NCBI GenBank assembly: GCA_965249555.1
Contig: OZ252243.1
Coordinates: forward strand, 2,016,001-2,080,000
Direction of reading: 5' to 3'
DNA from: Nitrosopumilus sp.
Lineage (GTDB): Archaea > Thermoproteota > Nitrososphaeria > Nitrososphaerales > Nitrosopumilaceae
DNA: 64,000 nucleotides
The notes beneath the pieces are model-generated. The model ran no database searches. It was not told the DNA's origin and worked only from the letters and a program-made list of their open reading frames with translations. The translations under genes and the position numbers were made by a program. Every line of letters begins with the position of its first letter. The first letter of the stretch is position 1. Below, piece after piece: positions 2,038 through 59,713 of the stretch.

Positions 2038-2219
2038 CATCAAAATTTTGGTATTTTTTTATAATGACATATGGTTAAGTAGAGATTTCACTTAGTATCT
2101 TTGGTTTTCATTTTATTCCCTTCTCTTTAAAAATAAAGAAAAAGTGGAAAACCTTTCTATGTGTCTATTAGATTAAAGAAATTTTTACCAGATGCGGATT
2201 TCTCAGAGATGCATTTCAC

Positions 2220-2358
2220 AGACGTTATACGAAATCTTTTTCATATCTTGTGATGTATACCTACTGTTGGGCCTGAGAGTTGAATGAATATTGCCATGTA
2301 CAAGGGCGTTACACAGACTAACTCAAAGTGAGCGGAAAACAAAATACCACATAGATGG
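2220..2358 (+). mobile_element. IS110/IS1111-type element B, left-end fragment with partial bridge-like RNA
   Basis: 2218-2358 matches the reverse complement of 53120-53260 with 3 mismatches; core AG at 2220-21; sub-terminal IR ATACGAAATC at 2227-36. Confidence 0.7.
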
Positions 2359-10197: not shown

Positions 10198-10460
10198 TTA
10201 AAAAGAATCTTTGGATTTACGCCTATTAGATAAATTGAAAAGGTTTGCACCTGTAATAAATTTCTCAATTCCTGCATCTTTGAGTCTACTTTCAATCAAA
10301 GAATATGCTCTTTTAGCCACATCACAACCTAACCATCTCCTACCCAATCTTTCTGCCGCTAAACAGGCAGTGGCACAACCGCAAAAAGGATCAAACACAG
10401 TTTCACCAACATCACTACTACTTTCAATTACTCTCTCTAGTAATGCAAGAGGTTTTTGTG
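10198..10460 (-). pseudogene. C-terminal fragment of an N4/N6 DNA methyltransferase
   Basis: QKPLALLERVIESSSDVGETVFDPFCGCATACLAAERLGRRWLGCD (SAM-binding motif I); N-terminal part absent. Confidence 0.85.
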
Positions 10461-10490
10461 ATCCCTATAACTTCACTGCACCTCAGACAA

Positions 10491-13139
10491 ATGTTTAAAT
10501 CTAATGTTTTTTACCAAAGATGCGTGTCCAAAGTGATACAGGGTATTTTCTCATTACTGATAATTTCTATAGCTGTCTTCTCAACTGATTATGCCTTTGC
10601 TGACGAAGTCATAGAAGAGCCTAAACGACCAATAATTAATACATTTGAAGTTTATGTTAGTGATAGTTTTTTTATTGAACCTGTAATACCTAAACAACCA
10701 GTAATTAATACAGACCATACTAGTGTTGCACCAGTTGTCAGTGGCACTTCCTACATATTGACATCTATATCCTTCATGCCACTAGTACCGGGTACATTTA
10801 CATTTGCATATCTCGATACCCAAGCCACATTTCTTGCTTATGAGAGCGATGTAGGTAAAATAAATGAATTCTTGATTCAAGCTAATTATGATCTTATAAA
10901 TTATGTTACCATTTCATATGACGGTGTTGTAGTTCAGGAGAAGTATATAGATCGTGGAATTGGTTCAGGACAAGTCACTTCAACAAGTATTGCACTTGAA
11001 TGGGATGTAGTAGATAATGCCGTAGGATATACGTTATACAAATTGGAGTTTATGCAATCAGACCAACAGGAGGTAGTAGTTCCAGGTACGAGTTTCTTAG
11101 TAAAAACTAGTGATACATCATTTACTGATACTGGTCTAAACCCAGACACAACTTACTTTTACATTGTAGAATCATATACTATTGATAATGTAAAGAATCA
11201 CAGAACATTACAGGTAACCACGGCATCTGCAGATTTTGATACCTGGCAAGCTCCAACTGCAACCCCGTCACTTTTAACAGTTGTAAGAAATGCTGATGAT
11301 TCCATCACGTTAAATTGGGATGCCTGGGAAGATGATGGTGTTGTAGAATTTACCAGTTTTATTGTTGAAATTGAAAGTTCAACTAAACACAATCGTATCA
11401 TCTTAGATGATCAAATACCCACTACTGTTACCAGTTTTACCATTTCTACTAATCATGAACATTTTGATGATGTGAATAATAGTGACAGAATTTTTGTACT
11501 TGCTGGTGATGATTTCTATAATTATATTTTGGCTGCCCCAGTGCCAGACCAAGTAGACCCAAGAACATTACAAGTACCGCCTGTTGAAAATGTAGTTGAA
11601 AATGAAAACATTGTTGAAATCGCATCAGTAATTAATACAGACCATACTAGTGTTGCACCAGTTGTCAGTGGCGGTTCCTACATATTGACATCTATATCCT
11701 TCATGCCACTAGTACCGGGTACATTTACATTTGCATATCTCGATACCCAAGCCACATTTCTTGCTTATGAGAGCGATGTAGGTGAAATAAATGAATTCTT
11801 GATTCAAGCTAATTATGATCTTATAAATTATGTTACCATTTCATATGACGGTGTTGTAGTTCAGGAGAAGTATATAGATCATGGAATTGGTTCAGGACAA
11901 GTCACTTCAACAAGTATTGCACTTGAATGGGATGTAGTAGATAATGCCGTAGGATATACGTTATACAAATTGGAGTTTATGCAATCAGACCAACAGAAGG
12001 TAGTTCCAGGTACGAGTTTCTTAGTAAAAACTAGTGATACATCATTTACTGATACTGGTCTAAACCCAGACACAACTTACTTTTACATTGTAGAATCATA
12101 TACTATTGATAATGTAAAGAATCACAGAACATTAAAGGTAACCACGGCATCTGCAGATTCTGATACCTGGCAAGCTCCAACTGCAACCCCGTCACTTTTA
12201 ACAGTTGTAAGAAATGCTGATGATTCCATCACGTTAAATTGGGATGCCTGGGAAGATGATGGTGTTGTAGAATTTACCAGTTTTATTGTTGAAATTGAAA
12301 GTTCAACTAAACACAATCGTATCATCTTAGATGATCAAATACCCACTACTGTTACCAGTTTTACCATTTCTACTAATCATGAACATTTTGATGATGTGAA
12401 TAATAGTGACAGAATTTTTGTACTTACTGCTGATGGTTTCTATAATTATATTTTGGCTGCCCCAGTGCCAGACCAAGTAGACCCAAGAACATTACAAGTA
12501 CCGCCGGTACTACCTGCCCCCTCAAAACCTCAAACCCTAGTAGCATCTGCTAATCACAACTCTGTAACTTTATCTTGGAATGAATCCAATGATGATACAA
12601 TTACAGGCTACAAGATATTATGCCGAACCCCTGCAACTGAATCCAGTCTCAAAACCTGTATTGAAAATACCGAAACAGTCAGTAACAGTTACACTGTTGA
12701 TGATTTAAAATCCGATACGGTCTATGTCTTTCGCGTAATTGCACTTAACGAGTCCGAAGAATCACCACGCTCCAATTTTGTTAAATTATCAACTGTTAGC
12801 GAACCCGTACCTTCCAACTCTGTTAAACCCCCAACTATTACTAGCGAACCTCCATCAAAACCTCAAAACTTGGAAGCATCTGCTAATAATAATACAGTAA
12901 AATTATCCTGGACTGATCCACAAGATTCGACCATAGATGGTTACAACATCTTGTGTAAAGAGCGTGGTACCAAAGACTTGGCAGTATGTAATACCTATAC
13001 TCTAAGTGATGACTCGCCAAGGGATTCATTTACTATCGAGTCATTAGATGATGGCAAATATGTCTACAGAGTAGTTGCATTTAATGAAGCAGGAGATAGC
13101 AAACGATCCAACTACGTACGAGTCAATATCGGCCAGTAA
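10491..13139 (+). CDS. secreted/surface fibronectin type III repeat protein
   Basis: Hydrophobic signal-like segment ending AFA; FN3 motifs (LEW...Y...GLNPDTTY, LSW...GYKI...YVFRVIALN); start uncertain. Confidence 0.88.
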   Translation: MFKSNVFYQRCVSKVIQGIFSLLIISIAVFSTDYAFADEVIEEPKRPIINTFEVYVSDSFFIEPVIPKQPVINTDHTSVAPVVSGTSYILTSISFMPLVPGTFTFAYLDTQATFLAYESDVGKINEFLIQANYDLINYVTISYDGVVVQEKYIDRGIGSGQVTSTSIALEWDVVDNAVGYTLYKLEFMQSDQQEVVVPGTSFLVKTSDTSFTDTGLNPDTTYFYIVESYTIDNVKNHRTLQVTTASADFDTWQAPTATPSLLTVVRNADDSITLNWDAWEDDGVVEFTSFIVEIESSTKHNRIILDDQIPTTVTSFTISTNHEHFDDVNNSDRIFVLAGDDFYNYILAAPVPDQVDPRTLQVPPVENVVENENIVEIASVINTDHTSVAPVVSGGSYILTSISFMPLVPGTFTFAYLDTQATFLAYESDVGEINEFLIQANYDLINYVTISYDGVVVQEKYIDHGIGSGQVTSTSIALEWDVVDNAVGYTLYKLEFMQSDQQKVVPGTSFLVKTSDTSFTDTGLNPDTTYFYIVESYTIDNVKNHRTLKVTTASADSDTWQAPTATPSLLTVVRNADDSITLNWDAWEDDGVVEFTSFIVEIESSTKHNRIILDDQIPTTVTSFTISTNHEHFDDVNNSDRIFVLTADGFYNYILAAPVPDQVDPRTLQVPPVLPAPSKPQTLVASANHNSVTLSWNESNDDTITGYKILCRTPATESSLKTCIENTETVSNSYTVDDLKSDTVYVFRVIALNESEESPRSNFVKLSTVSEPVPSNSVKPPTITSEPPSKPQNLEASANNNTVKLSWTDPQDSTIDGYNILCKERGTKDLAVCNTYTLSDDSPRDSFTIESLDDGKYVYRVVAFNEAGDSKRSNYVRVNIGQ
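10699..12505 (+). repeat. near-identical intragenic duplication (10699-11581 and 11626-12505)
   Basis: About 880-bp units with a few substitutions and one 3-nt indel. Confidence 0.95.
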
Positions 13140-26849: not shown

Positions 26850-27304
26850 GTATGTATCAACCTTCACGCACAAATCAATATCATTACACAAAAAGATCTA
26901 AGATCAACTAAATCATCACACAACACATGTCAGATTGTGATCATGAGAAAATCATCATACAATTACAAGAAGGGATGAAACAACAAAAACTAATCATAGA
27001 AAATCTCATAGAATCAAACAAGGAACTGCAAAAAAAGCTGTCATATTATGAGAATGCTCACTCTCCGCCATCAAAGAATTCCCTTGAATGGAGAAAGCAA
27101 AAAAGACAACACAGACAGCCAGGCAAATCAAGACGTGGTGGAATAGCAGGACACAAGGGCAAGACACAGAAATTCAGACCAACTAGCACCAAACACCACA
27201 GATCAGATGCATGTCCTAAATGCGGTAGTGAAAATATTCATCAAACCAAAACCTGCAAAAGGATAATGGTTGAGATTCCTCCACCAACACCCTACGGTAT
27301 AACT
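26850..27304 (+). mobile_element. truncated IS66-family element (left end plus N-terminal transposase 26927-27319)
   Basis: Begins GTATGTATCAACCTTCACGCACAAATCAA, as at 56451; NAHSPPS and CPKCG shared with 56528-57898. Confidence 0.9.
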
Positions 27305-41770: not shown

Positions 41771-41973
41771 TTCTCTTTTTTCATCTCGTTTATTCTAGTT
41801 AGCATTCTTGCAATATCATGACGTAGTGGTTTTAGTTTACCACTTTGTTTTCTTAGTGTACCTTTAGCTCCATCAACTCTAAGTTTTTTAAGCTCACTTC
41901 TTGTCTCTTGAATCTTACTTTTGAGATCTTTTTCGTTTAACTGTTTAATGGTTTTCATACTAAGTCTTGTCAT
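41767..41973 (-). CDS. rpl29: 50S ribosomal protein L29
   Basis: R.DIARMLT.INE motif; operon position. Confidence 0.95.
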
Positions 41974-42992
41974 TTCAATTTGGCCTCTTCTTCCTCTAAT
42001 GTTTCAATACTTTTCATTTTTTCTTCTTCAATAACAATTTGCTCTGTTTCTGATTTTACCTTACTTTTTGCATCATCACTTGTCTTTACTGCATCATCAC
42101 TTGTCTTTACTGCATCATCACTTGTCTTTACTGCATCATCACTTGTCTTTACTGCATCATCACTTGTCTTTACTGCATCATCACTTGTCTTTACTGCATC
42201 ATCACTTGTCTTTACTGCATCATCACTTGTCTTTACTGCATCATCACTTGTCTTTACTGCATCATCACTTGTCTTTACTGCATCATCACTTGTCTTTACT
42301 GCATCATCACTTGTCTTTACTGCATCATCACTTGTCTTTACTGCATCATCACTTGTCTTTACTGTTTTTTCTTCTTGAACTTGTTTTGTCTTCTTTACTT
42401 TTTTATCTTTCATTTCAAATTCCGGAATAAATTTTTCTTTTCTTGCAATTCTAATTCGAATACCAATTAACCCCATTGCAGTTTGTACGTGTGCAATGTC
42501 TTCATCAACAATAATTTCTGCGTGATGTCCTGCTCTTGGTAAAATTCCTGCTGTATGTTTTTCAAATGCTGAACGATCCCCTCTGAGTTTTCCAGAAATT
42601 GTTATTTGAACTCCCATTGCACCGCCTTCCATAATTTGTTTCAATGTCCACATCGTCGCTCTTCTGAATGCAGTCCCTCGCTCAATATGTGATGCCATTC
42701 TATTACACATCACACTTGGAGCTAGTTCCGGTTTCTCAATTTCTACTACTGAAATTTGAGGACTCTTTAATCCAAAATCTGTTTCAAGTTTTTCAGTGAG
42801 GGCTCTGATTCCCGTACCTTTTCTTCCGATAACTATTCCCGGTCTTGTTACATGTAATGCAACTCTTGTACCTGTTGGTGTTTTTGATATCTCTGCATGT
42901 GAAAAACCTGCATCTTTAATTGCTTCTCTTAGATAATCTTTGAGAAGCATCATGTTATAGTTATCTTTGATTACATTTTTGATTGCTGACAT
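41970..42992 (-). CDS. rps3: 30S ribosomal protein S3 with a (VKTSDDA)14 insertion
   Basis: [16 protein letters not shown] and SGKL motifs. Confidence 0.97.
42069..42362. repeat. perfect tandem repeat, 14 x 21 bp
   Basis: Unit TGCATCATCACTTGTCTTTAC; 294 bp; no spacers. Confidence 0.97.
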
Positions 42993-51914: not shown

Positions 51915-51979
51915 GCGTTAAAATTGCAATTTTTCCTTTAAAGCATTCTTCCATATTATTACCTAATACAATGTATGTA

Positions 51980-53063
51980 TAGCGAAGAGTCAAAGTTCGT
52001 GAACTAAAAATCATCAAAACACTTTTTGATCACCACACACAATGAAACACATGGACAAGTTAGAACAGCTTGAAGCAGCATACAAAAAGGAAAACTCCAA
52101 AGATATAGTCAGGATGCTTGCAGTACTAATGGTTCTCAAAGAGGGTAAGGAATTAGAGTACGCACAAACACTACACCGCTGTACAAACTGGGTACGCAAA
52201 TGGGTTGATCGTTTTAAAGTAGATGGCCTATATGATCACCCAAGGAGTGGAAGACCATGTGTAATCCCAAAGAAGCAAATGGATTCTATTATGTTCAAAA
52301 TTATGTTGACACTATTTACACCTGTAATGCTGCAGCAGACAATATTTGATTCTACTGGAATAAAATTTCACATAACACATGTCAGAAAAATAATGCACCA
52401 GTATGGAATGTATGGAATGTCTGCTAAAACTGCACAAAAATATCACGTCAATCATGCAAGTGTAACAGCTGTGCGCAGCTGGGCAGCAACGCATGAAAAA
52501 GAGAATTCCACACCTAAAAAAGAGTGGATTCACCATTGCAATGCTTGATGAGGCATTCTTTGTTAGGGATGTAAAGGCAGGACGAAAATATTGGTCACCA
52601 GTTGCCAAAAGAATATTTCTCCCATATGTGGGAAACCATGAAAGTTTGGCAGTGTATGGAACAATTACAATCAATGGAGACCAACTGTTTAGAATTTATA
52701 AAAAATTCAACGGTATAACATTTGTAGAATATCTAAAAGAGCTACACTACAAATATGGTAAAATTGCGTTGATACTTGACAGGGCATCAGTGCAGCAATC
52801 AAAGAAGGTCAGGGACTTTTTGACAGATAATCCAGATGTTAAACTGATTTGGCTACCAAAAGGACCCACCATATCTAAACATGATAGAGCAGTGTTGGAA
52901 AATAGGCAAGCATGTGTTGTTGGTATCAGAATATTATGCAATGTTTGCAATAATGAATAATGCAGTGTCACAATACTTTGGAACAAAAAAATTCAAACTT
53001 GATGTTGTTAATTATATTTTTAGAAATCCTGCAAAGATGTTCACGAACTTTTGATCGTCGCTA
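51980..53063 (+). mobile_element. IS630-family element, copy 1 (frameshifted transposase 52042 to about 53050)
   Basis: IRs TAGCGAAGAGTCAAAGTTCGTGAAC / GTTCACGAACTTTTGATCGTCGCTA flanked by TA; HTH...RSGRP, DE, ILDRA and YLNMIE motifs. Confidence 0.93.
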
Positions 53064-53065
53064 TA

Positions 53066-53258
53066 CCATCACCCTCCTTTTTGATCAAATTGCCTGATCT
53101 AGCGGAATGCTCCCATTTGCCATCTATGTGGTATTTTGTTTTCCGCTCACTTTGAGTTAGTCTGTGTAACGCCCTTGTACATGGCAGTAATAATTCAACT
53201 CTCAGGCCCAACAGTAGGTATACATCACAAGATATGAAAAAGATTTCGTATAACGTCT
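53066..53258 (-). mobile_element. IS110/IS1111-type element B, left end up to the SD and start codon
   Basis: Core AG, sub-terminal IR ATACGAAATC, structured non-coding region, then AAGGAGGGTG ATGG interrupted by IS630 at TA. Confidence 0.7.
53092..53207 (-). ncRNA. candidate bridge/seek RNA of element B
   Basis: Closing stem GCCTGA/TCAGGC around two hairpins with internal loops (GAGTTG/TAACTC; AGCGGAA/TTCCGCT); a loop holds ATGGGAG matching the element's right end. Confidence 0.6.
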
Positions 53259-53350
53259 GTTAAGAGATTGATCATCAGAAACTGGGGGGCCTAAATACAT
53301 CAGGAATAATGAAATGGAATTGATTTTATACTACGTTTGATCAAAATATA

Positions 53351-53578
53351 ATGATGAAACCAAAAAGCAAACTCTCTTTTACAGTATGTAGTGAAGATGA
53401 AGGTGGATTTAGTGCACAATGTATTGAATTTCCAGGAATTATAACTCAAGCTGATACAGAGTCTAAACTCACAGAAATGATGACTGATGCAGTAAATGGC
53501 TATTTTGAATCCTTTCCAGAAGAACGAAAGAGATTACAAAACATAAAGAAAAATAAAGTGATAGAGATCAGTGTCTAA
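53351..53578 (+). CDS. hicB: HicB-family antitoxin
   Basis: EDEGGFSA.C.EFPG.ITQADT motif. Confidence 0.88.
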   Translation: MMKPKSKLSFTVCSEDEGGFSAQCIEFPGIITQADTESKLTEMMTDAVNGYFESFPEERKRLQNIKKNKVIEISV

Positions 53579-53783
53579 AAAACTACCAATTCTATCATCT
53601 AGAGATATTCTGAGAATACTGCGCAGACACAAATTTTGGCAAACTGGACAGACTGGTAGCCATATTTTTATGACTGATGGAAAGCACAAGGTCACAATTC
53701 CACAAAGAAAGGAAATGAAGAAAGGGACTATGATATCCATAATTACACAGTCAGGATTAACACGAGAAGATTTTCTCAAATAA
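53571..53783 (+). CDS. hicA: HicA-family mRNA interferase toxin
   Basis: LP..S..DILRIL...F..Q.GSH...VTIP...GT..SII.QSG pattern. Confidence 0.9.
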   Translation: MSKKLPILSSRDILRILRRHKFWQTGQTGSHIFMTDGKHKVTIPQRKEMKKGTMISIITQSGLTREDFLK

Positions 53784-53999: not shown

Positions 54000-54011
54000 T
54001 TCACATGGATA

Positions 54012-55095
54012 TAGCGACGATCAAAAGTTCGTGAACATCTTTGCAGGATTTCTAAAAATATAATTAACAACATCAAGTTTGAATTTTTTTGTTCCAAAGT
54101 ATTGTGACACTGCATTATTCATTATTGTAAACATTGCATAATATTCTGATACCAACAACACATGCTTGCCTATTTTCCAACACTGCTCTATCATGTTTAG
54201 ATATGGTGGGTCCTTTTGGTAGCCAAATCAGTTTAACATCTGGATTATCTGTCAAAAAGTCCTTGACCTTCTTTGATTTGTGCACTGATGCCCTGTCAAG
54301 TATCAACGCAATTTTACCATATTTGTAGTGTAGCTCTTTTAGATATTCTACAAATGTTATACCGTTGAATTTTTTATAAATTCTAAACAGTTGGCCCCCA
54401 TTGATTGTAATTGTTCCATACACTGCCAAACTTTCATGGTTTCCCACATATGGGAGAAATATTCTTTTGGCAACTGGTGACCAATATTTTCGTCCTGCCT
54501 TTACATCCCTAACAAAGAATGCCTCATCAAGCATTGCAATGGTGAATCCACTCTTTTTTAGGTGTGGAATTCTCTTTTTCATGCGTTGCTGCCCAGCTGC
54601 GCACAGCTGTTACACTTGCATGATTGACGTGATATTTTTGTGCAGTTTTAGCAGACATTCCATACATTCCATACTGGTGCATTATTTTTCTGACATGTGT
54701 TATGTGAAATTTTATTCCAGTAGAATCAAATATTGTCTGCTGCAGCATTACAGGTGTAAATAGTGTCAACATAATTTTGAACATAATAGAATCCATTTGC
54801 TTCTTTGGGATTACACATGGTCTTCCACTCCTTGGGTGATCATATAGGCCATCTACTTTAAAACGATCAACCCATTTGCGTACCCAGTTTGTACAGCGGT
54901 GTAGTGTTTGTGCGTACTCTAATTCCTTACCCTCTTTGAGAACCATTAGTACTGCAAGCATCCTGACTATATCTTTGGAGTTTTCCTTTTTGTATGCTGC
55001 TTCAAGCTGTTCTAACTTGTCCATGTGTTTCATTGTGTGTGGTGATCAAAAAGTGTTTTGATGATTTTTAGTTCACGAACTTTGACTCTTCGCTA
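54012..55095 (-). mobile_element. IS630-family element, copy 2 (inverted)
   Basis: Near-identical reverse complement of 51980-53063, flanked by TA. Confidence 0.93.
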
Positions 55096-55247
55096 TATCA
55101 ACCTTCGCGCACAAATCAATAGCTATATGTGAATACAAAAAGAAGGAATTCAGATAGCATAAAAAATGAACCCAGGTTCAGGACTCGTAATTCATCGTCC
55201 TCAAAGAAAAGTCCAAAGAGACAGATTAGGGGGAAAAAGACAAGGGC

Positions 55248-56231
55248 ATGTATGTTGGCATTGACTTGCACAAGAAATTTCTTCAAGTGGCAACAATGGA
55301 TAATGACGGAAAGATATTACAAAACATAAAAGTTGAGAACACTCATGAATCAATCAGGAAACATTTTACAGACATACAGATTCATGCCAATATTGTCATG
55401 GAATCATCATCAGTATAACACGTATGGATTTCTTACAGATGAATTGGGATACAAAAACGTGACACTCTCAAACCCGTATCTTACAAAGACAATAGCCGCA
55501 TCAAAAAAAACAGACAAGATTGATGCCAGGATACTGGCAGATCTTTTGCGTGGAGGATACATTGCAACATGCCATATTCCAAACAAAAAGATAGTAAAAC
55601 ATCGCCAGCTGGTAAGATACAGAAAAAAACTCATTCAGTGGAGAACATCTCTCAAAAATTCTGTCCATGGAATTTTGTTACAGGAGGGAATCAAGATACC
55701 CGGAGTCACATTCACTGTAACATACAACAAAAGACTCACCTCCCTAGGTGACTATCGCATAGATGGATTTGTACGACAGATAGACTATCTTAATCTGCAA
55801 ATTGCAGATATTAATTCAAGAGTGTATGCTGCTGTAAATGCCAGTCCTGATGCCATGATAATAAAATCAATACCCGGAATTGGTGACTACTCGTCACTAG
55901 TTATCGCATCAGAAATTGCAAATATTAGCAGATTCAATGACTCTCACAAGTTATGCGCATATGCAGGAGTCGTGCCATCAGTCAGAAACTCTGCAGATTA
56001 CACCATGGCAGCATAACCAAAAGAGGAAGCATGACACTACGATGGGTCCTTATCCAATGCGTCCATTCTCATGCAATACATGCCAAGAACAGTGACATTA
56101 CAAAATTTTACAATCGCATTAAAAAGAAGAGAGGCTCATCAAAAGATGCAGTTGCCGCATCATCCCAGATTCTGTGAGTGATTTACTGGATGCTAAAAGA
56201 GAGGAGAGAATTTGTACAGAATTACAGTTAG
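55248..56231 (+). pseudogene. IS110 DEDD transposase (two frameshifts and one TGA)
   Basis: MYVGIDLHK, VMES, KKTDKIDA, SIPGIG, YAGVVPSVRNS and G.ITKRGS..LRW motifs across frames. Confidence 0.9.
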
Positions 56232-56400
56232 GACTGCAAGTCGCGTTTGGTATGTTGAGGGACAAGCCTCGGTTGATAACTGCGAATAGGTCCTAACGAA
56301 GGGATGAAGATAGCATTGAGGAAGAAGCCTCGTATGGATACATGTCCGTCATCTTTTGTTTGAAAGCATTCCCTAGCGAAAGCTATGCCTTGGGATGTAA
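56227..56400 (+). ncRNA. candidate bridge/seek RNA of element A
   Basis: Two internal-loop hairpins, each capped by GAGG-N6-CCTC; guides match the target and donor junctions; third hairpin TAGC-GAAA-GCTA. Confidence 0.78.
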
Positions 56401-56450
56401 AAAAGTAGGAAATGTATAAAAACAATTCACATGGATACATACCTAAACAG

Positions 56451-57913
56451 GTATGTATCAACCTTCACGCACAAATCAACACTATTACACAAAAAGATCT
56501 AAGATCAACTAAATCATCATACAAAACATGTCAGGTTGTGGTCATGAGAAAATCATCATACAGCTACAAAAAAAGACAAAACAACAAGACGAAGTGATAA
56601 AACAACTACAAGCAGAGATAAAACAACAAAAACTAATCACAGGGAATCTCATAGAATCAAACAAGGAACTACAAAAAAGACTGTCATATTATGAGAATGC
56701 GCACTCTCCGCCATCAAAGAATTCCCTTGAATGGAGAAAGCAAAAAAGACAACACAGACAGCCAGGCAAATCAAGACGTGGTGGAATAGCAGGACACGTT
56801 GGCAAGACACAGAAATTCAGACCAACTAGCACCAAACACCACAGATCAGATGCATGTCCCAAATGCGGTAGTGAAAATATTCATCAAACCAAAACCTGCA
56901 AAAGGATAATGGTTGAGATTCCTCCACCAACACCCTACGGTATAACTGAGCATGTTTTGAATCAATACATCTGCATGGACTGTTCTGATAATTTTCAAAC
57001 CACGGGAAACCTTCCACTACATGGATGTTTTGATGGTTCAGTGATACGTGAGGTAGTCTCACTGTTCTCAAAGAGATTGACATACGATGCTATCAGAACC
57101 ACACTCTATGAAAGATATGGATTAGAAATCAGCAATACAACCGTACAATCCATTCTTCGCAACGGTAGTGTGATGTTAGAGTCATTTTACAATGACATCC
57201 ACAGCGAAATCGTGACTGAAAAGATTCTCGGAATCGATGAGACCGGATTTTCAATTGATGGAAATACTGGATGGATGTGGGTTGCAAGAAGCAAGACTAG
57301 TGCACAGTATGCCTTGGAGTACAGCAGAGGTGCCAATGTTCTAAAAAAGTACTGGAAGAAATTCAAAGGAACCCTAGTGTCTGACGGATATGCTCCGTAC
57401 AGGACAGTATTTTGTGATAACACAAAGCAGAGATGCACCGCACACCTGCAGCGCGATGCCAAATATCTGGCAATAAAATCAAAGGACAAAAAGGCCAGGA
57501 TTCTATATGAGAAACTCTCAGGGATGCTAGGTCATGCCAGGGTTTGGAGTGTAGGTAATCGTCATACAAAACGGCGGGAAACGTACAGGAATGATTTACT
57601 AAAACAGCTGGACCGTATCATTGCACGATATTTGAAAGGTGATACGGAGATGGTTCAGTTTGGCAAGAAGCTAAAGACTGCAAGGAACAGCATGTTTACG
57701 TTTGTCATGGATGGTGATGTCCCGTCAACTAACAATGATGCAGAGAATTCCATTCGAAAGTGCGTGATGCAGAGGAATGTTCGCGGGCAGATGAAGAGTG
57801 ATCAGGGCATGAGGATGATCTCAGTCTTTCTCACATGCTTTGAGACATGGAGAATAAGGGAATTGAACATGTTTTCTGAGATGGCAAAATACATCTAAGT
57901 GCTTAATACATAC
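56451..57913 (+). mobile_element. IS66-family element (single-ORF, ISBst12-like), intact
   Basis: IRs GTATGTAT(C/T)AA; 8-bp TSD CTAAACAG at 56443-50 and 57914-21. Confidence 0.93.
56528..57898 (+). CDS. IS66-family transposase
   Basis: N.HSPPS, CPKCG, IDETG, LVSDGY..Y, QRCTAHL.R and TNNDAE.SIR motifs. Confidence 0.95.
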   Translation: MSGCGHEKIIIQLQKKTKQQDEVIKQLQAEIKQQKLITGNLIESNKELQKRLSYYENAHSPPSKNSLEWRKQKRQHRQPGKSRRGGIAGHVGKTQKFRPTSTKHHRSDACPKCGSENIHQTKTCKRIMVEIPPPTPYGITEHVLNQYICMDCSDNFQTTGNLPLHGCFDGSVIREVVSLFSKRLTYDAIRTTLYERYGLEISNTTVQSILRNGSVMLESFYNDIHSEIVTEKILGIDETGFSIDGNTGWMWVARSKTSAQYALEYSRGANVLKKYWKKFKGTLVSDGYAPYRTVFCDNTKQRCTAHLQRDAKYLAIKSKDKKARILYEKLSGMLGHARVWSVGNRHTKRRETYRNDLLKQLDRIIARYLKGDTEMVQFGKKLKTARNSMFTFVMDGDVPSTNNDAENSIRKCVMQRNVRGQMKSDQGMRMISVFLTCFETWRIRELNMFSEMAKYI

Positions 57914-57952
57914 CTAAACAGTTATTTATATAGAAATTTAGTAATTGAGTAT

Positions 57953-58222
57953 ATGATGTCAGCAATGCATCAAATGCAATACACTGGATTCACAACAACC
58001 ATGTTAGCTCTTGAACCAACTGCAACTGATACTGAAGTCTATTTTGTAGAATTAAAACAAGATGAAGATGGACGTTTTGTTGCTACTGTTCCAAAATTAC
58101 CTGGTGTTGTAACTGATGGTGCTACAGAAGATGAAGCATTAGATAATGTTAATGATGCAGTTCAAGCCATGTTAGAAGCTAAAGGATTAAAGCAACAGTT
58201 TATTCTTATCAGTGTTTCATAA
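57953..58222 (+). CDS. hicB: HicB-family antitoxin
   Basis: DEDGRFVATVP.LPGVVTDG.T..EAL.N..DA motif. Confidence 0.9.
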   Translation: MMSAMHQMQYTGFTTTMLALEPTATDTEVYFVELKQDEDGRFVATVPKLPGVVTDGATEDEALDNVNDAVQAMLEAKGLKQQFILISVS

Positions 58223-58229
58223 CGTCGTA

Positions 58230-58451
58230 TTGCCTAAGTTACCACGACCTTCTACTAGAGAATTAGCAGCTTTTCTAAATACTCAAGGTTACACTTTGGA
58301 TCATTCAAGAAAACATCATGTTTTTAAAAATAGTGCAGGAGCAATGGTAACTGTTCCTGAAAGACAAGAAATAGGAACTGGATTACTGATGGCAATATTG
58401 GCTGAAATTGGTTGTAGTAGAGATGATTTTATGAAATGGTGGCAAAAATAA
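58230..58451 (+). CDS. hicA: HicA-family toxin
   Basis: LP....REL..FL...GY...HHVFK...VTVP...EIG.GLL.AIL pattern. Confidence 0.85.
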   Translation: MPKLPRPSTRELAAFLNTQGYTLDHSRKHHVFKNSAGAMVTVPERQEIGTGLLMAILAEIGCSRDDFMKWWQK

Positions 58452-58953: not shown

Positions 58954-59036
58954 AATAGAATTTTTTAGGCATGAGACATATTCAAAATCATTGTTAATTA
59001 AAAAAGAACGTCAATTTCTTACTGAAAAAACGTATG

Positions 59037-59544
59037 TATCCATGTGAATTGTTTTTATACATTTCCCACTTTTTTACATCCAGAGGAATAGCTTTCGCTA
59101 GGGAATGCTTTCAAACAAAAGATGACGGACATGTATCCATACGAGGCTTCTTCCTCAATGCTATCTTCATCCCTTCGTTAGGACATATTCGCAGTTATCA
59201 ACCGAGGCTTGTCCCTCAACATACCAAACGCGACTTGCAGTCCTAACTGTAATTCTGTACAAATTCTCTCCTCTTTTTTAGCATCCAGTAAATCACTCAC
59301 AGAATCTGGGATGATGCGGCAACTGCATCTTTTGATGAGCCTCTCTTCTTTTTAATGCGATTGTAAAATTTTGTAATGTCACTGTTCTTGGCATGTATTG
59401 CATGAGAATGGACGCATTGGATAATGACCCATCGTAGTGTCATGCTTCCTCTTTTGGTTATGCTGCCATGGTGTAATCTGCAGAGTTTCTGACTGATGGC
59501 ACGACTCCTGCATATGCGCATAACTTGTGAGAGTCATTGAATCT
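59037..59544 (-). mobile_element. IS110 element A, partial copy 2 (right end, RNA and transposase C-terminus)
   Basis: Reverse complement of about 55930-56437 with a few substitutions. Confidence 0.9.
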
Positions 59545-59670
59545 CCCATACGAAATCGTCTCCAATTACTACGGACACTTTTTAGCGTGCTTTGCTGAAT
59601 CAGGACATCTCAGATATGCCTTGCATCTTATACTTTTGTTGTGTCAGTTCATGATTTTGTGTACGATACA
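59543..59670 (-). mobile_element. IS110/IS1111-type element B, right-end fragment
   Basis: Minus strand GATTTCGTAT-GGG-AG (IR to the ATACGAAATC of the left ends), preceded by a putative transposase tail YRTQNHELTQQKYK. Confidence 0.6.
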
Positions 59671-59713
59671 CTTTCAGAATTGCAAAGAGAAGAGGAAGTG
59701 GAAATGTGTGTGC

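What the first reader, a model, noticed from the sequence alone, without database searches (positions are those of the whole stretch)
2220..2358. Second bridge-like RNA (element B), encoded at the left end, with a guide that differs between copies
Seen: 2218-2358 and the reverse complement of 53120-53260 are identical over 141 bp except at three positions (2286, 2288, 2291). All three fall on the 5' strand of one internal loop (TGAAT-ATT-GCC versus TTATT-ACT-GCC). The loop's 3' strand GTTACACAG resembles both left flanks (TTCACAG, TTAACAG) ending in an AG core. The longer copy has a second loop carrying ATGGGAG, the same as the element's right end CGTATGGG-AG at 59543. Sub-terminal IRs (ATACGAAATC) lie 7 and 3 nt from the ends, the IS1111-group spacing. 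Yet the RNA lies upstream of an SD and ATG, whereas most described IS1111-group elements carry it downstream. Loop geometry mirrors element A (guide+ATT+hairpin; core followed by ACT or CAT..TCCG). Inference: natural reprogramming of a target guide in an archaeal RNA-guided recombinase. Weak point: the predicted right-donor guide matches poorly (AAC only).
Basis: partly seen in the sequence, partly recalled or inferred. Interest (0 to 1): 0.8.

Follow-up and report, generated by a model that had tools for sequence, protein, structure and literature searches.

The report
Archaeal IS110 bridge RNA, varied guides
The repeat is the left end of a decayed archaeal insertion sequence whose upstream RNA carries two short hypervariable stretches that match the DNA on either side of insertion sites, a natural example of retargeting in a known kind of RNA-guided recombinase.

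Summary
Window 2215-2358 and the reverse complement of 53120-53263 match over 144 nt; inside the element they differ only at 2286, 2288 and 2291.

Both are left-end fragments of a ~1.28-kb IS110-family element, "B". It has 26 left ends and 36 right ends in this archaeal genome, and no intact transposase in 9 near-full copies.

The left end folds into a basal stem enclosing two internal-loop hairpins. Covariation across 10 genomes of four families in the order search, and 9 of the genus, supports this.

- **Loop 1** holds two 5-nt hypervariable blocks. The 3' block plus AG equals left flanks. The 5' block is the reverse complement of right flanks.
- **Loop 2** holds AATGGGAG, which equals the right end, and a 3-nt right-donor guide (AAC) that covaries with left-end positions 3-5.

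Within this genome a copy's own guide does not predict its own flank better than shuffling (5 of 16 exact, p=0.25). The pooled guides do (11 of 15, P~4e-20), and so do own guides in other genomes (26 of 30 at 4/5 or better).

Guide order and 10-bp subterminal repeats are IS1111-like, but the RNA lies upstream of the gene. Expression is untested. I file it as a new member of a known kind.

The parts
2220..2221 (+). AG core at the left junction of window copy 1. The left flank is TTTCAC-AG.
   Evidence: Empty sites elsewhere define the junction as LT-AG|ACGTT.
2222..2358 (+). Window copy 1: element B positions 1-137 only. It holds the subterminal repeat, the P1 5' strand, all of loop 1 and the 5' half of loop 2. 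It lacks the left-donor guide and the P1 3' strand. It is fused at GATGG(T) to a 53-nt piece (2354-2406) of an IS4/IS5-like element.
   Evidence: Model R1 scores it 96.4 bits as a partial match.
2285..2291 (+). Right-target guide block of copy 1: TGAAT (2285-2289), then A, then the T/C position at 2291 (T here).
   Evidence: The reverse complement ATTCA is the right flank of 6 right ends in register and of 5 more with a 1-nt offset.
2310..2316 (+). Left-target guide TACAC (2310-2314) plus the AG core copy (2315-2316).
53066..53256 (-). Window copy 2: element B positions 1-191. It holds the complete RNA region (P1-P5 and both loops) and the Shine-Dalgarno sequence. An IS630-like insertion cuts it at the TA of GGTA|TG in the start-codon region. 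The left flank is CTTAAC-AG (AG at 53258-53257).
   Evidence: Model R1 scores it 178.6 bits over the full model.
53187..53193 (-). Right-target guide block of copy 2: TTATT (53193-53189), then A, then C at 53187.
53162..53168 (-). Left-target guide TACAC (53168-53164) plus AG (53163-53162).
53138..53140 (-). Right-donor guide AAC (element positions 117-119), complementary to GTT at left-end positions 3-5.
   Evidence: 56 of 60 positions pair across 20 lineage classes, against 14-25 of 60 at other offsets. No shuffle out of 20,000 reached the observed value.
53110..53117 (-). Left-donor guide AATGGGAG. It has the same sense as the element's right end ...GTATGGGAG, including the core.
   Evidence: It is identical in B, B2 (G002), G098 and G190, so it does not vary and there is no covariation evidence.
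53092..53207 (-). Span of the predicted RNA core, from the P1 5' strand (53207-53202) to the P1 3' strand (53097-53092). It encloses the loop-1 hairpin (P2/P3) and the loop-2 hairpin (P4/P5).
   Evidence: The RNA's real 5' and 3' ends are unknown.
51978..53065 (.). IS630-like element (HTH plus DDE_3 ORFs) that truncates copy 2. An inverted second copy lies at 54010-55097.
59543..59681 (-). Separate right-end fragment of a B variant, ...AATTGGAGACGATTTCGTATGGGAG, ending at 59543. It sits in the AG|ATTCAATG site of a partial copy of another IS110-family gene (59032-59542).
55925..55936 (+). Unoccupied B target in the transposase gene of the neighbouring IS110-family element 'A': TTAGC-AG-ATTCA.
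   Evidence: The same site carries a B right end in 6 places in the genome.

Best explanation
Both window repeats are left-end remnants of element B, a ~1.28-kb insertion sequence of the IS110 family.

**Ends.** B is bounded by LT-AG|ACGTT ATACGAAATC ... GATTTCGTAT GGGAG|RT. It makes no target duplication. It shares a 2-nt AG core with its target.

**RNA.** The ~190-nt left non-coding end, upstream of the Shine-Dalgarno sequence and ATG, encodes a bridge/seekRNA-type RNA. A basal stem (P1) encloses two hairpins, each with an internal loop.

[quoted passage not shown] - **Loop 2 binds the donor.** A 3-nt guide (AAC) in its 5' strand pairs with left-end positions 3-5. AAUGGGAG in its 3' strand matches the right end and the core.

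The two window copies carry the same left guide (TACAC). Their right guides differ (TGAAT-AU against TTATT-AC), so they specify different right half-sites.

**What is shown here.** The element's anatomy and ends are shown. So are the transposase family, the concentration of variation in the two blocks, the structure covariation and the guide-flank and guide-end covariation.

**What is inferred from characterised relatives.** Three steps rest on relatives: that the region is transcribed, that the RNA binds the transposase, and that it directs recombination. The relatives are IS621, ISEc11 and ISEc21 (PMC11208160 and PMC11187229).

In this genome the family looks extinct or non-autonomous. Insertion sites fit the pool of guide variants rather than each copy's own guide.
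For: **Ends and core.** Empty and occupied sites define the ends and the AG core.

**Transposase.** The best ORF (291 aa) scores 204.5 bits on NF033542, 'IS110 family RNA-guided transposase' (cut-off 140). It also matches PF01548 and PF02371. IS621 and ISCro4 transposases are its PDB hits, at E about 2e-10.

**Hypervariability.** 9 of 11 block columns vary against 11 of 125 elsewhere. Diversity is 0.29 against 0.013.

**Pool-level match in this genome.**
- 11 of 15 independent left flanks equal one of the 6 left-guide variants, against a background of 0.9% (P about 4e-20). All 15 are within 1 mismatch.
- 8 of 26 independent right flanks equal the reverse complement of one of the 5 right-guide variants in register, against a background of 1.3% (P about 1e-9).

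**Simple insertions confirmed by empty sites.**
- Copy 2207470 (TGAAT-ACT / TTGAT) sits in CTTGAT-AG-TATTCA. The left half matches 5 of 5, and AGTATTCA matches 8 of 8.
- Copy 851549 (TTATT-ACT / TACAC) sits in TTACAC-AG-TTATAA. The left half matches 5 of 5 and the right half 5 of 6.

**Other genomes.**
- In G002 three left-guide variants (GCGAA, GCAAA, TCAAA) each match their own flank 5 of 5, and ACGAA-CU matches AG|TTCGT.
- In G098 GGGTT matches AACCC.
- In G190 AUUAAC matches G|TTAAT.
- In G062 a 9-nt left match is seen.
- Overall 13 of 30 are exact and 26 of 30 are at 4/5 or better, against 1.3 and 4.2 for shuffles (0 of 20,000 as high). Collapsed to 18 rows, 8 and 15 against 0.84 and 2.45.

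**Right-donor guide.** 16 of 20 classes pair fully and 56 of 60 positions pair, against 39.6 for shuffles (0 of 20,000) and 14-25 of 60 at other offsets.

**Structure.** 88.8% of cells pair, against 38.7% or less when partners are slid. 13 of 26 pairs carry double changes, against 7.6 for shuffles (1 of 500). RNAalifold recovers P2-P5 on its own, with 13 of 21 pairs compensated.

**Strand.** Invariant or frequent G.U pairs (U.G in P3 in 22-24 rows) fit the sense strand as RNA.
Against: - **No expression data.** No RNA run was listed for this sequence, so transcription, RNA ends and protein binding are untested.
- **Weak single-sequence folding.** Single-sequence folding is no better than shuffles (z -0.16 and +1.14).
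- **No own-copy match here.** Within this genome own guide against own left flank is not better than random pairing (5 of 16 exact, shuffles 3.56, p=0.25). 7 of 16 copies have 2-3 mismatches. Only 4 of 9 near-full copies have a right flank within 1 mismatch of their own right guide.
- **Unfixed right-guide register.** The 5-nt block abuts the core with a bulged A in some cases (AACC, ATTCA flanks). In others it is one base further on and contiguous (TATTCA).
- **Broken genes.** All 9 near-full copies have broken ORFs, the longest 291 aa of about 333. Some have N instead of D in the first catalytic motif (GINIHK).
- **Invariant left-donor guide.** It gives no covariation evidence.
- **Alignment caveats.** The structure alignments were fitted to my model, and the sequences are related, so shuffle counts overstate.
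- **Not in Rfam.** No Rfam family matches.
Confidence: 0.85

Rival explanations
1. The left end is only a protein-recognised terminal region or 5' UTR. Target choice (TTNAC-AG-...) is set by the transposase. The variable positions are drift in dead copies that happen to resemble flanks.
For: All copies in this genome are decayed. Own-copy guide-flank matching here is not significant. The left flanks share a loose TT.AC pattern that a protein could read.
Against: Drift would not put 9 of 20 variable columns into 11 of 136 positions. It would not produce only variants that equal real flanks (11 of 15 exact). In other genomes quite different guides (GCGAA, GTAAT, CGATA, GGCTC, GCAAC) track quite different flanks. 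The donor guide tracks the element's own end.
Confidence: 0.04
2. The guides act at the DNA level, as in IS200/IS605 where subterminal hairpin 'guide' DNA pairs with the cleavage site. No RNA would be involved.
For: Nothing here shows an RNA (one search lists no RNA holder). The pairing rules found would also hold for single-stranded DNA.
Against: The transposase is a DEDD IS110-family enzyme. Characterised members of that family use an RNA (PMC11208160 passages; PMC11187229 sections 6, 9, 12). Stems keep many G.U pairs that would be G.T or A.C in DNA, depending on the strand. The element lies directly upstream of the gene, in the orientation of a transcript.
Confidence: 0.05
3. The blocks are records of past flanks rather than determinants. 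On this reading, flank sequence is copied into the element during excision or insertion.
For: The left-guide block plus AGAC equals the left junction (LT-AG-AC). Several copies carry a guide that matches another copy's site.
Against: No such copying mechanism is known for this family. The right-guide block is the reverse complement of the flank, not a copy. The block lies 64-93 nt inside the element between invariant stems. In relatives, experimentally changing the RNA redirects insertion (PMC11187229 section 12; PMC11208160 passages).
Confidence: 0.03

Closest known systems
IS1111-family elements with seekRNA (ISEc11, ISPa11, ISKpn4; Siddiquee et al. 2024, PMC11187229, sections 6, 9 and 12 read)
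   Same: - DEDD transposase of about 333 aa, within the 330-350 aa range given there.
- Subterminal inverted repeats (10 bp here).
- The segment complementary to the top strand lies 5' of the segment complementary to the bottom strand.
- The two matches overlap at the insertion point.
- GL-P----S(G/A) motif: GLAPSHRDSG in G098 and GLAPSHRDSA here.
- Targets lie in other mobile elements.
   Different: The RNA lies upstream of the transposase gene, not downstream. [quoted passage not shown] B also has a ~143-nt right NCR. The host is an archaeon. I did not test phylogenetic placement of the transposase within IS1111 against IS110.
IS621 bridge RNA (Durrant et al. 2024, PMC11208160, passages read; Hiraizumi et al. 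2024, search listing only)
   Same: - An RNA in the left end with two internal loops, one for the target and one for the donor.
[quoted passage not shown]
- A 2-nt core shared by donor and target.
- The transposase gives a PDB sequence hit at E=1.7e-10.
   Different: - The order of the two guides within each loop is reversed: the right guide is 5' here.
- The core is AG, not CT.
- The subterminal repeat is long.
- A basal stem encloses both hairpins.
- The right-donor guide is only 3 nt and starts at position 3 of the end.
Natural redirection in ISMch6 against ISEc21 (PMC11187229, section 12)
   Same: A few base changes in the target-defining segment of otherwise similar RNAs go with a changed target.
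   Different: That case compares two IS from different hosts with 72% identical transposases, and a single copy. Here at least 6 left-guide and 5 right-guide variants occur among copies about 94-100% identical within one genome, with more variants in sister genomes.
ISPpu9 and its Ssr9 small RNA in Pseudomonas putida (PMC12288879, abstract in the search listing only)
   Same: Stand-alone copies of the IS110-family RNA gene exist apart from full elements. Window copy 1 and 7 other truncated left ends joined to an IS4/IS5-like body resemble these: 5 share one flank, and 92149 and 1913914 have others.
   Different: There the RNA gene lies downstream of the transposase. Here the solo copies are truncation products, and their expression is unknown.

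Membership tests
IS110 family insertion sequence | DEDD (RuvC-like) N-terminal domain plus Transposase_20 C-terminal domain | tested here: met
   PF01548 at 58.8 bits, PF02371 at 91 bits, and NF033542 at 204.5 bits (cut-off 140) on L001:370-1242.
IS110 family insertion sequence | Site-specific insertion without target duplication, with a short core shared by donor junction and target | tested here: met
   Empty against occupied sites...ACACAG|TTA... becomes ...ACACAG|ACGTT...GGGAG|TTA....
IS110 family insertion sequence | An intact transposase gene with catalytic residues | tested here: not met
   0 of 9 near-full copies has an ORF over 291 aa, against an expected ~333 aa. They carry different indels and stops, and some have GINIHK instead of GIDVHK. 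Intact ~356-aa relatives exist in public data. This shows decay of these copies, not non-membership.
Bridge RNA / seekRNA | A structured non-coding region with internal loops between conserved stems | tested here: met
   Five helices. 88.8% of cells pair against 38.7% or less when slid. 13 of 26 pairs have double changes. RNAalifold recovers four helices.
Bridge RNA / seekRNA | [quoted passage not shown] | tested here: met
   Pool-level match in this genome. Own-copy covariation in 30 copies from 13 other genomes. Right-flank matches in G002, G098 and G190. Own-copy test within this genome: not significant.
Bridge RNA / seekRNA | A second loop complementary to the element's own ends (donor) | tested here: met
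   The right-donor guide covaries with left-end positions 3-5. The left-donor guide AATGGGAG equals the right end in four lineages, but without variation.
Bridge RNA / seekRNA | The RNA is transcribed, binds the transposase and is needed for transposition | not testable with these tools
IS1111 group | Subterminal inverted repeats of 7-17 bp | tested here: met
   ATACGAAATC / GATTTCGTAT, 10 of 10, lying 5 nt inside each end. The repeats differ but stay complementary in relatives: CATGTGTT in G002 and ATATGAAAAAT in G190.
IS1111 group | The top-strand match lies 5' of the bottom-strand match in the RNA | tested here: met
   The right guide (reverse complement of the flank) is in the 5' strand and the left guide (same sense) in the 3' strand, in both loops.
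IS1111 group | The long non-coding region and RNA lie downstream of the transposase gene | tested here: not met
   The RNA occupies positions ~50-165 of the left end, upstream of the Shine-Dalgarno sequence and ATG at 192. The right NCR is about 143 nt.
IS1111 group | The transposase clusters with IS1111-family transposases in a phylogeny | not tested
   No named reference set was to hand. Plasmid tblastn gave only 'IS110 family transposase' labels, with the best hits haloarchaeal and rhizobial at ~37% identity.

The most novel reading that the evidence does not exclude
The copies form a shared, trans-acting guide pool. All copies keep the same ends and donor loop but carry different target loops. 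Insertion sites fit the pool rather than the inserting copy's own guide. On this reading, RNA from one copy steers siblings, including MITE-like deletion derivatives. Target-loop-only fragments that ride inside an IS4/IS5-like element would add guides to the same pool. A single family would then sample many sites, and guides would be selected at the level of the family rather than of the individual copy.
Probability: 0.3. Interest if true: 0.65.

Novelty: new member of a known kind. Interest (0 to 1): 0.45.

Why it matters
RNA-guided IS110/IS1111 recombinases are being developed as programmable genome-writing tools.

This locus gives a compact archaeal example (Nitrososphaeria-like, by the names of the closest homologues). 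In it, one genome and its relatives display a natural series of retargeted guides separated by single-base steps. The two-loop architecture is mapped, including a very short 3-nt right-donor guide.

It also shows a hybrid layout: IS1111-type guide order and long subterminal repeats, but an upstream RNA. Only exceptions of this kind have been noted in print.

Guides and sites are mismatched inside one genome. This raises a testable question: do such RNAs act in trans among sibling copies?

The covariance models built here (R1, R2) describe an RNA that has no Rfam family.

Tried and rejected
**Single-sequence folding.** Both window copies fold no better than shuffles. I therefore took structure from comparative data only.

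**Rfam.** Nothing at gathering level on the window except two tRNAs. Nothing at E up to 10 on a full left end.

I rejected pairing the 53256 left end with the 59543 right end. On the minus strand the right end would have to lie near 51976. What lies there is an IS630-like element and then a membrane-protein gene.

**Inversion idea.** I asked whether an inversion between the two inverted IS630-like copies would rejoin copy 2 to the IS110 gene at 55248. It does not. That gene belongs to a different IS110-family element ('A'), and 55098 onward is not B sequence.

**Own-copy covariation in this genome.** Not significant. I did not drop this result.

**T/C position (2291 / 53187).** I considered that it switches the register of the right guide: U pairing with core A when the block abuts the core, C pairing with core G when it is one base further on. 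Copy 1239168 fits this. Copy 1798470 (AU, but in the offset site) does not. The idea is left as untested.

**G215/G140 lineage (TG core).** The only candidate right end (at +1615) does not match the left-donor guide well, so I drew no conclusion.

**Rows left out of the counts.** I could not locate the left junction for L041, L046, L050, L057, L075, L079 and L084. L065 is a duplicate of L063.

**IS1111 against IS110 by plasmid tblastn.** The labels are uninformative.

**RNA evidence.** No RNA holder was listed.

**Literature searches for prior description.**. In one search none of the 10 papers listed holds 'bridge RNA' or 'seekRNA' (all zero occurrences) alongside the Nitrososphaeria or Thaumarchaeota terms.

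Full report
**1. The observation**

The repeat finder gives inverted arms 2215-2358 and 53120-53263, 144 nt and 97% complementary. A direct comparison finds four differences. One (2217) lies in the flank.

Both copies begin ACGTTATACGAAATC directly after an AG: 2220-2221 on the plus strand and 53258-53257 on the minus strand.

**2. What the repeat belongs to**

BLAST against the whole genome (2.23 Mb, one contig, 34.4% G+C; the window is 2016001-2080000) finds 27 left-end hits and 36 right ends. One left-end hit is really the inverted repeat of a right end, leaving 26.

Uninterrupted copies of a repeated target give the exact ends:
- Empty: ...CCAATTACACA(A/G)TTATAATAC...
- Occupied: ...CCAATTACACAG|ACGTTATAC...GTATGGGAG|TTATAATAC...

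The element, which I call B, is about 1280 bp. It makes no target duplication and shares an AG core with its target. It has perfect 10-bp subterminal inverted repeats, ATACGAAATC / GATTTCGTAT.

The best surviving ORF (291 aa) scores 204.5 bits on NF033542, 'IS110 family RNA-guided transposase' (cut-off 140). It also matches PF01548 and PF02371. Its PDB hits are the IS621 and ISCro4 transposases, at E about 2e-10.

None of the 9 near-full copies has an intact gene. They carry different, mosaic combinations of indels and stops.

The host is an archaeon (archaeal SSU and LSU rRNA). The 441 protein homologues with E at most 1e-10 are typically about 356 aa. Where named, they are called IS110 family transposases of Nitrosotenuis, Nitrosopumilaceae, Nitrosotalea or Nitrososphaerales.

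**3. What is in the window**

- **Copy 1 (2222-2358)** is only B positions 1-137. It is fused at a GATGG(T) microhomology to 53 nt of an element with an IS4/IS5-type DDE_Tnp_1 transposase. It has loop 1 but lacks the 3' half of loop 2.
- **Copy 2 (53256 down to 53066)** has the whole non-coding left end. An IS630-like insertion (51978-53065) cuts it at the start codon.
- **The right end at 59543** is a separate 139-nt fragment. It sits in the AG|ATTCAATG site of a partial copy of a different IS110-family gene. The intact neighbour of that gene (55248-56177) still has the free site TTAGC-AG-ATTCA at 55925-55936.

**4. The variable blocks**

In an alignment of 26 left ends almost all variation falls in two 5-nt blocks and one adjacent position:
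- GTTGAA[TGAAT / TGGAT / TTATT / AGGTT / TGGTT]A[T/C]TGCC
- GGGCGT[TACAC / TTGAT / TTAAC / TTGAC / TTCAC / CCAAC]AGACTAAC

Among 22 ungapped copies, 9 of 11 block columns vary against 11 of 125 others (p=2e-7). Diversity is 0.29 against 0.013. The variants are connected mostly by single-base steps.

**5. Guides and flanks in this genome**

Empty sites define three repeated targets:
- ATTACAC-AG-TTA(T/C)AATAC, in the terminal repeat of the IS4/IS5-like element.
- ACTTGAT-AG-TATTCAAG.
- TATT(A/G)(A/G/C)C-AG-ATTCAATG, in conserved codons of other IS110-family transposase genes.

Two insertions are provably simple and fit their own guides:
- Copy 2207470 (TGAAT-ACT / TTGAT) matches CTTGAT-AG-TATTCA at 5 of 5 on the left, and AGTATTCA at 8 of 8.
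- Copy 851549 (TTATT-ACT / TACAC) matches TTACAC-AG-TTATAA at 5 of 5 on the left and 5 of 6 on the right.

Taken over all copies, however, own left guide against own left flank is not better than chance. It gives 5 of 16 exact, against a shuffle mean of 3.56 (p=0.25). Seven copies have 2-3 mismatches.

The pool of guides does explain the sites:
- 11 of 15 independent left flanks equal one of the six left-guide variants, against a background of 0.9% (P about 4e-20).
- All 15 are within one mismatch.
- 8 of 26 independent right flanks equal the reverse complement of a right-guide variant in register, against a background of 1.3% (P about 1e-9).

Fifteen right flanks in unique DNA begin AACC or AATC. 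These fit the GGTT and GGAT guides.

The left guide lies within 93 nt of the left junction. Ordinary crossovers between copies would therefore rarely separate it from its flank. The mismatches point to guidance in trans by sibling RNAs or to gene conversion, and I cannot tell which.

**6. Relatives**

A covariance model of the region (R1, then R2) finds homologues in 9 of 101 sampled genomes of the genus and in 10 of 151 of the order. The order hits span four families. Both counts include G000.

Own guide and own flank agree in these genomes:
- In G002 the left guides GCGAA, GCAAA and TCAAA sit next to AAGCGAA-AG, ACGCAAA-AG and GATCAAA-AG. The right guide ACGAA-CU faces AG|TTCGT.
- In G098 GGGTT faces AACCC.
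- In G190 GTAAT and TAGAC match their flanks, and AUUAAC faces G|TTAAT.
- In G062 nine bases match.
- In G215 and G140 the guide GGCTC-TG matches CGGCTC-TG, so in that lineage the core itself appears to be TG.

Over 30 copies from 13 other genomes, 13 are exact and 26 have at least 4 of 5. Shuffles give 1.3 and 4.2, and 0 of 20,000 reach the observed values. Collapsed to one row per genome and guide class (18 rows), the counts are 8 and 15 against 0.84 and 2.45. Relatedness inflates such tests, but at least a dozen distinct guide classes are involved.

**7. The donor loop**

AATGGGAG in the 3' strand of loop 2 equals the right end (..ATGGGAG) in B, G002, G098 and G190. It does not vary.

The three bases after GCGG-NN in the 5' strand of loop 2 pair with left-end positions 3-5. 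The guide/end triplet pairs seen are AAC/GTT, GGC or GGU/GCC, AGC/GCT, AGU/ACT, AUC/GAT, GUA/TAC, GUC/GAC and AUA/TAT.

These pair fully in 16 of 20 lineage classes and at 56 of 60 positions. Shuffles give 39.6, with 0 of 20,000 as high. Other offsets give 14-25 of 60.

**8. Structure**

A basal stem (P1) encloses two hairpins: P2/P3 with loop 1 and P4/P5 with loop 2.

On 27 sequences, 88.8% of cells pair, against at most 38.7% when partners are slid. 13 of 26 pairs show changes on both sides, against 7.6 for shuffles (1 of 500). RNAalifold on a second set of 24 predicts P2-P5 by itself, with 13 of 21 pairs compensated. Both alignments were fitted to my model, so they lean towards it.

Frequent G.U pairs fit the sense strand.

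**9. Comparison with what is known**

[quoted passage not shown] In IS1111-family seekRNAs the top-strand match is 5' of the bottom-strand match (PMC11187229, sections 9 and 12).

B has the IS1111 order, IS1111-type subterminal repeats, a transposase of IS1111-like length and a GL-P----S(G/A) motif. Its RNA, however, is upstream of the gene, as in the IS110 group.

Siddiquee et al. list such exceptions (ISMtsp17, and ISHvo10 and ISAcp5 with NCRs on both sides; section 6). They also describe one natural redirection (ISMch6; section 12). Archaeal IS110 recombinases are known (bioRxiv 10.1101/2024.06.21.599552, passages read).

I found no description of this archaeal clade's RNA in four literature searches. 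I could not see supplements.

**10. Verdict**

It is a new member of a known kind, with three useful features:
- an unusually rich natural series of retargeted guides;
- a mapped 3-nt right-donor guide;
- a guide-site mismatch pattern within one genome that suggests action in trans.

Transcription and activity remain untested, and in this genome the family appears dead.

Noticed in passing
window 51978-53065 and 54010-55097: Two 1088-bp IS630-like copies (HTH plus DDE_3 ORFs, 99% identical) lie in inverted orientation. They bracket a 944-bp segment that holds the B left end and a HicA-type toxin ORF (53571-53783), with a small upstream ORF (53351-53578) that has no Pfam match.
   Followed up: partly
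window 55098-56442 and 59032-59542: Another IS110-family element ('A') has a frameshifted gene (55248-56177) and a long ~265-nt downstream non-coding region. An inverted duplicate of its 3' 513 bp lies at 59032-59544. Conserved codons of its Transposase_20 domain are a preferred B target.
   Followed up: partly
window 56451-57898 and 26850-27241: An IS66-family transposase gene (456 aa; NF033517 at 221.9 bits) has a partial second copy (85-93% identical) at 26850-27241. It is followed by a HicB-like / HicA pair at 57899-58451.
   Followed up: partly
genome 547111, 373195, 1498340, 1867481, 2109975 (locus L069:150-1450): Five copies of an IS4/IS5-like element (338-aa DDE_Tnp_1 ORF) carry the same truncated B left end, with loop 1 and guides TGGAT-AC / TTAAC, inside their left terminal repeat. 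A B target-loop module has therefore been multiplied by another transposon.
   Followed up: partly
genome 674403, 1584121, 1803998, 1839074, 2126947: A further repeat family shares only the last ~80 nt of B (the right end) behind an unrelated conserved body. MITE-like B deletion derivatives of about 215-320 bp also exist (672486-672700, 1498951-1499268, 2219381-2219669).
   Followed up: no
loci L077, L085, L088 (G215) and L078 (G140): In this lineage both the left-target guide and the left junction end in TG instead of AG. This suggests a changed core dinucleotide. The right end could not be confirmed.
   Followed up: partly
window 41985-42425: About 20 tandem copies of a 21-bp unit lie inside the ORF 41970-42992 (minus strand).
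   Followed up: no
window 10699-12299: Two long internal direct repeats (300 nt reported, 99% identical, spaced 924-927 bp) lie inside the 898-aa ORF 10443-13139.
   Followed up: no
locus L048 150-1586 (G098): The B copy in G098 abuts a long ORF with a TnpB-like C-terminal zinc-finger region; the resemblance is recalled and was not scanned. Its left flank resembles the TTTTGGGAA..TT...GAT-AG target seen in this genome. B relatives may therefore target ends of IS200/IS605-type elements.
   Followed up: no
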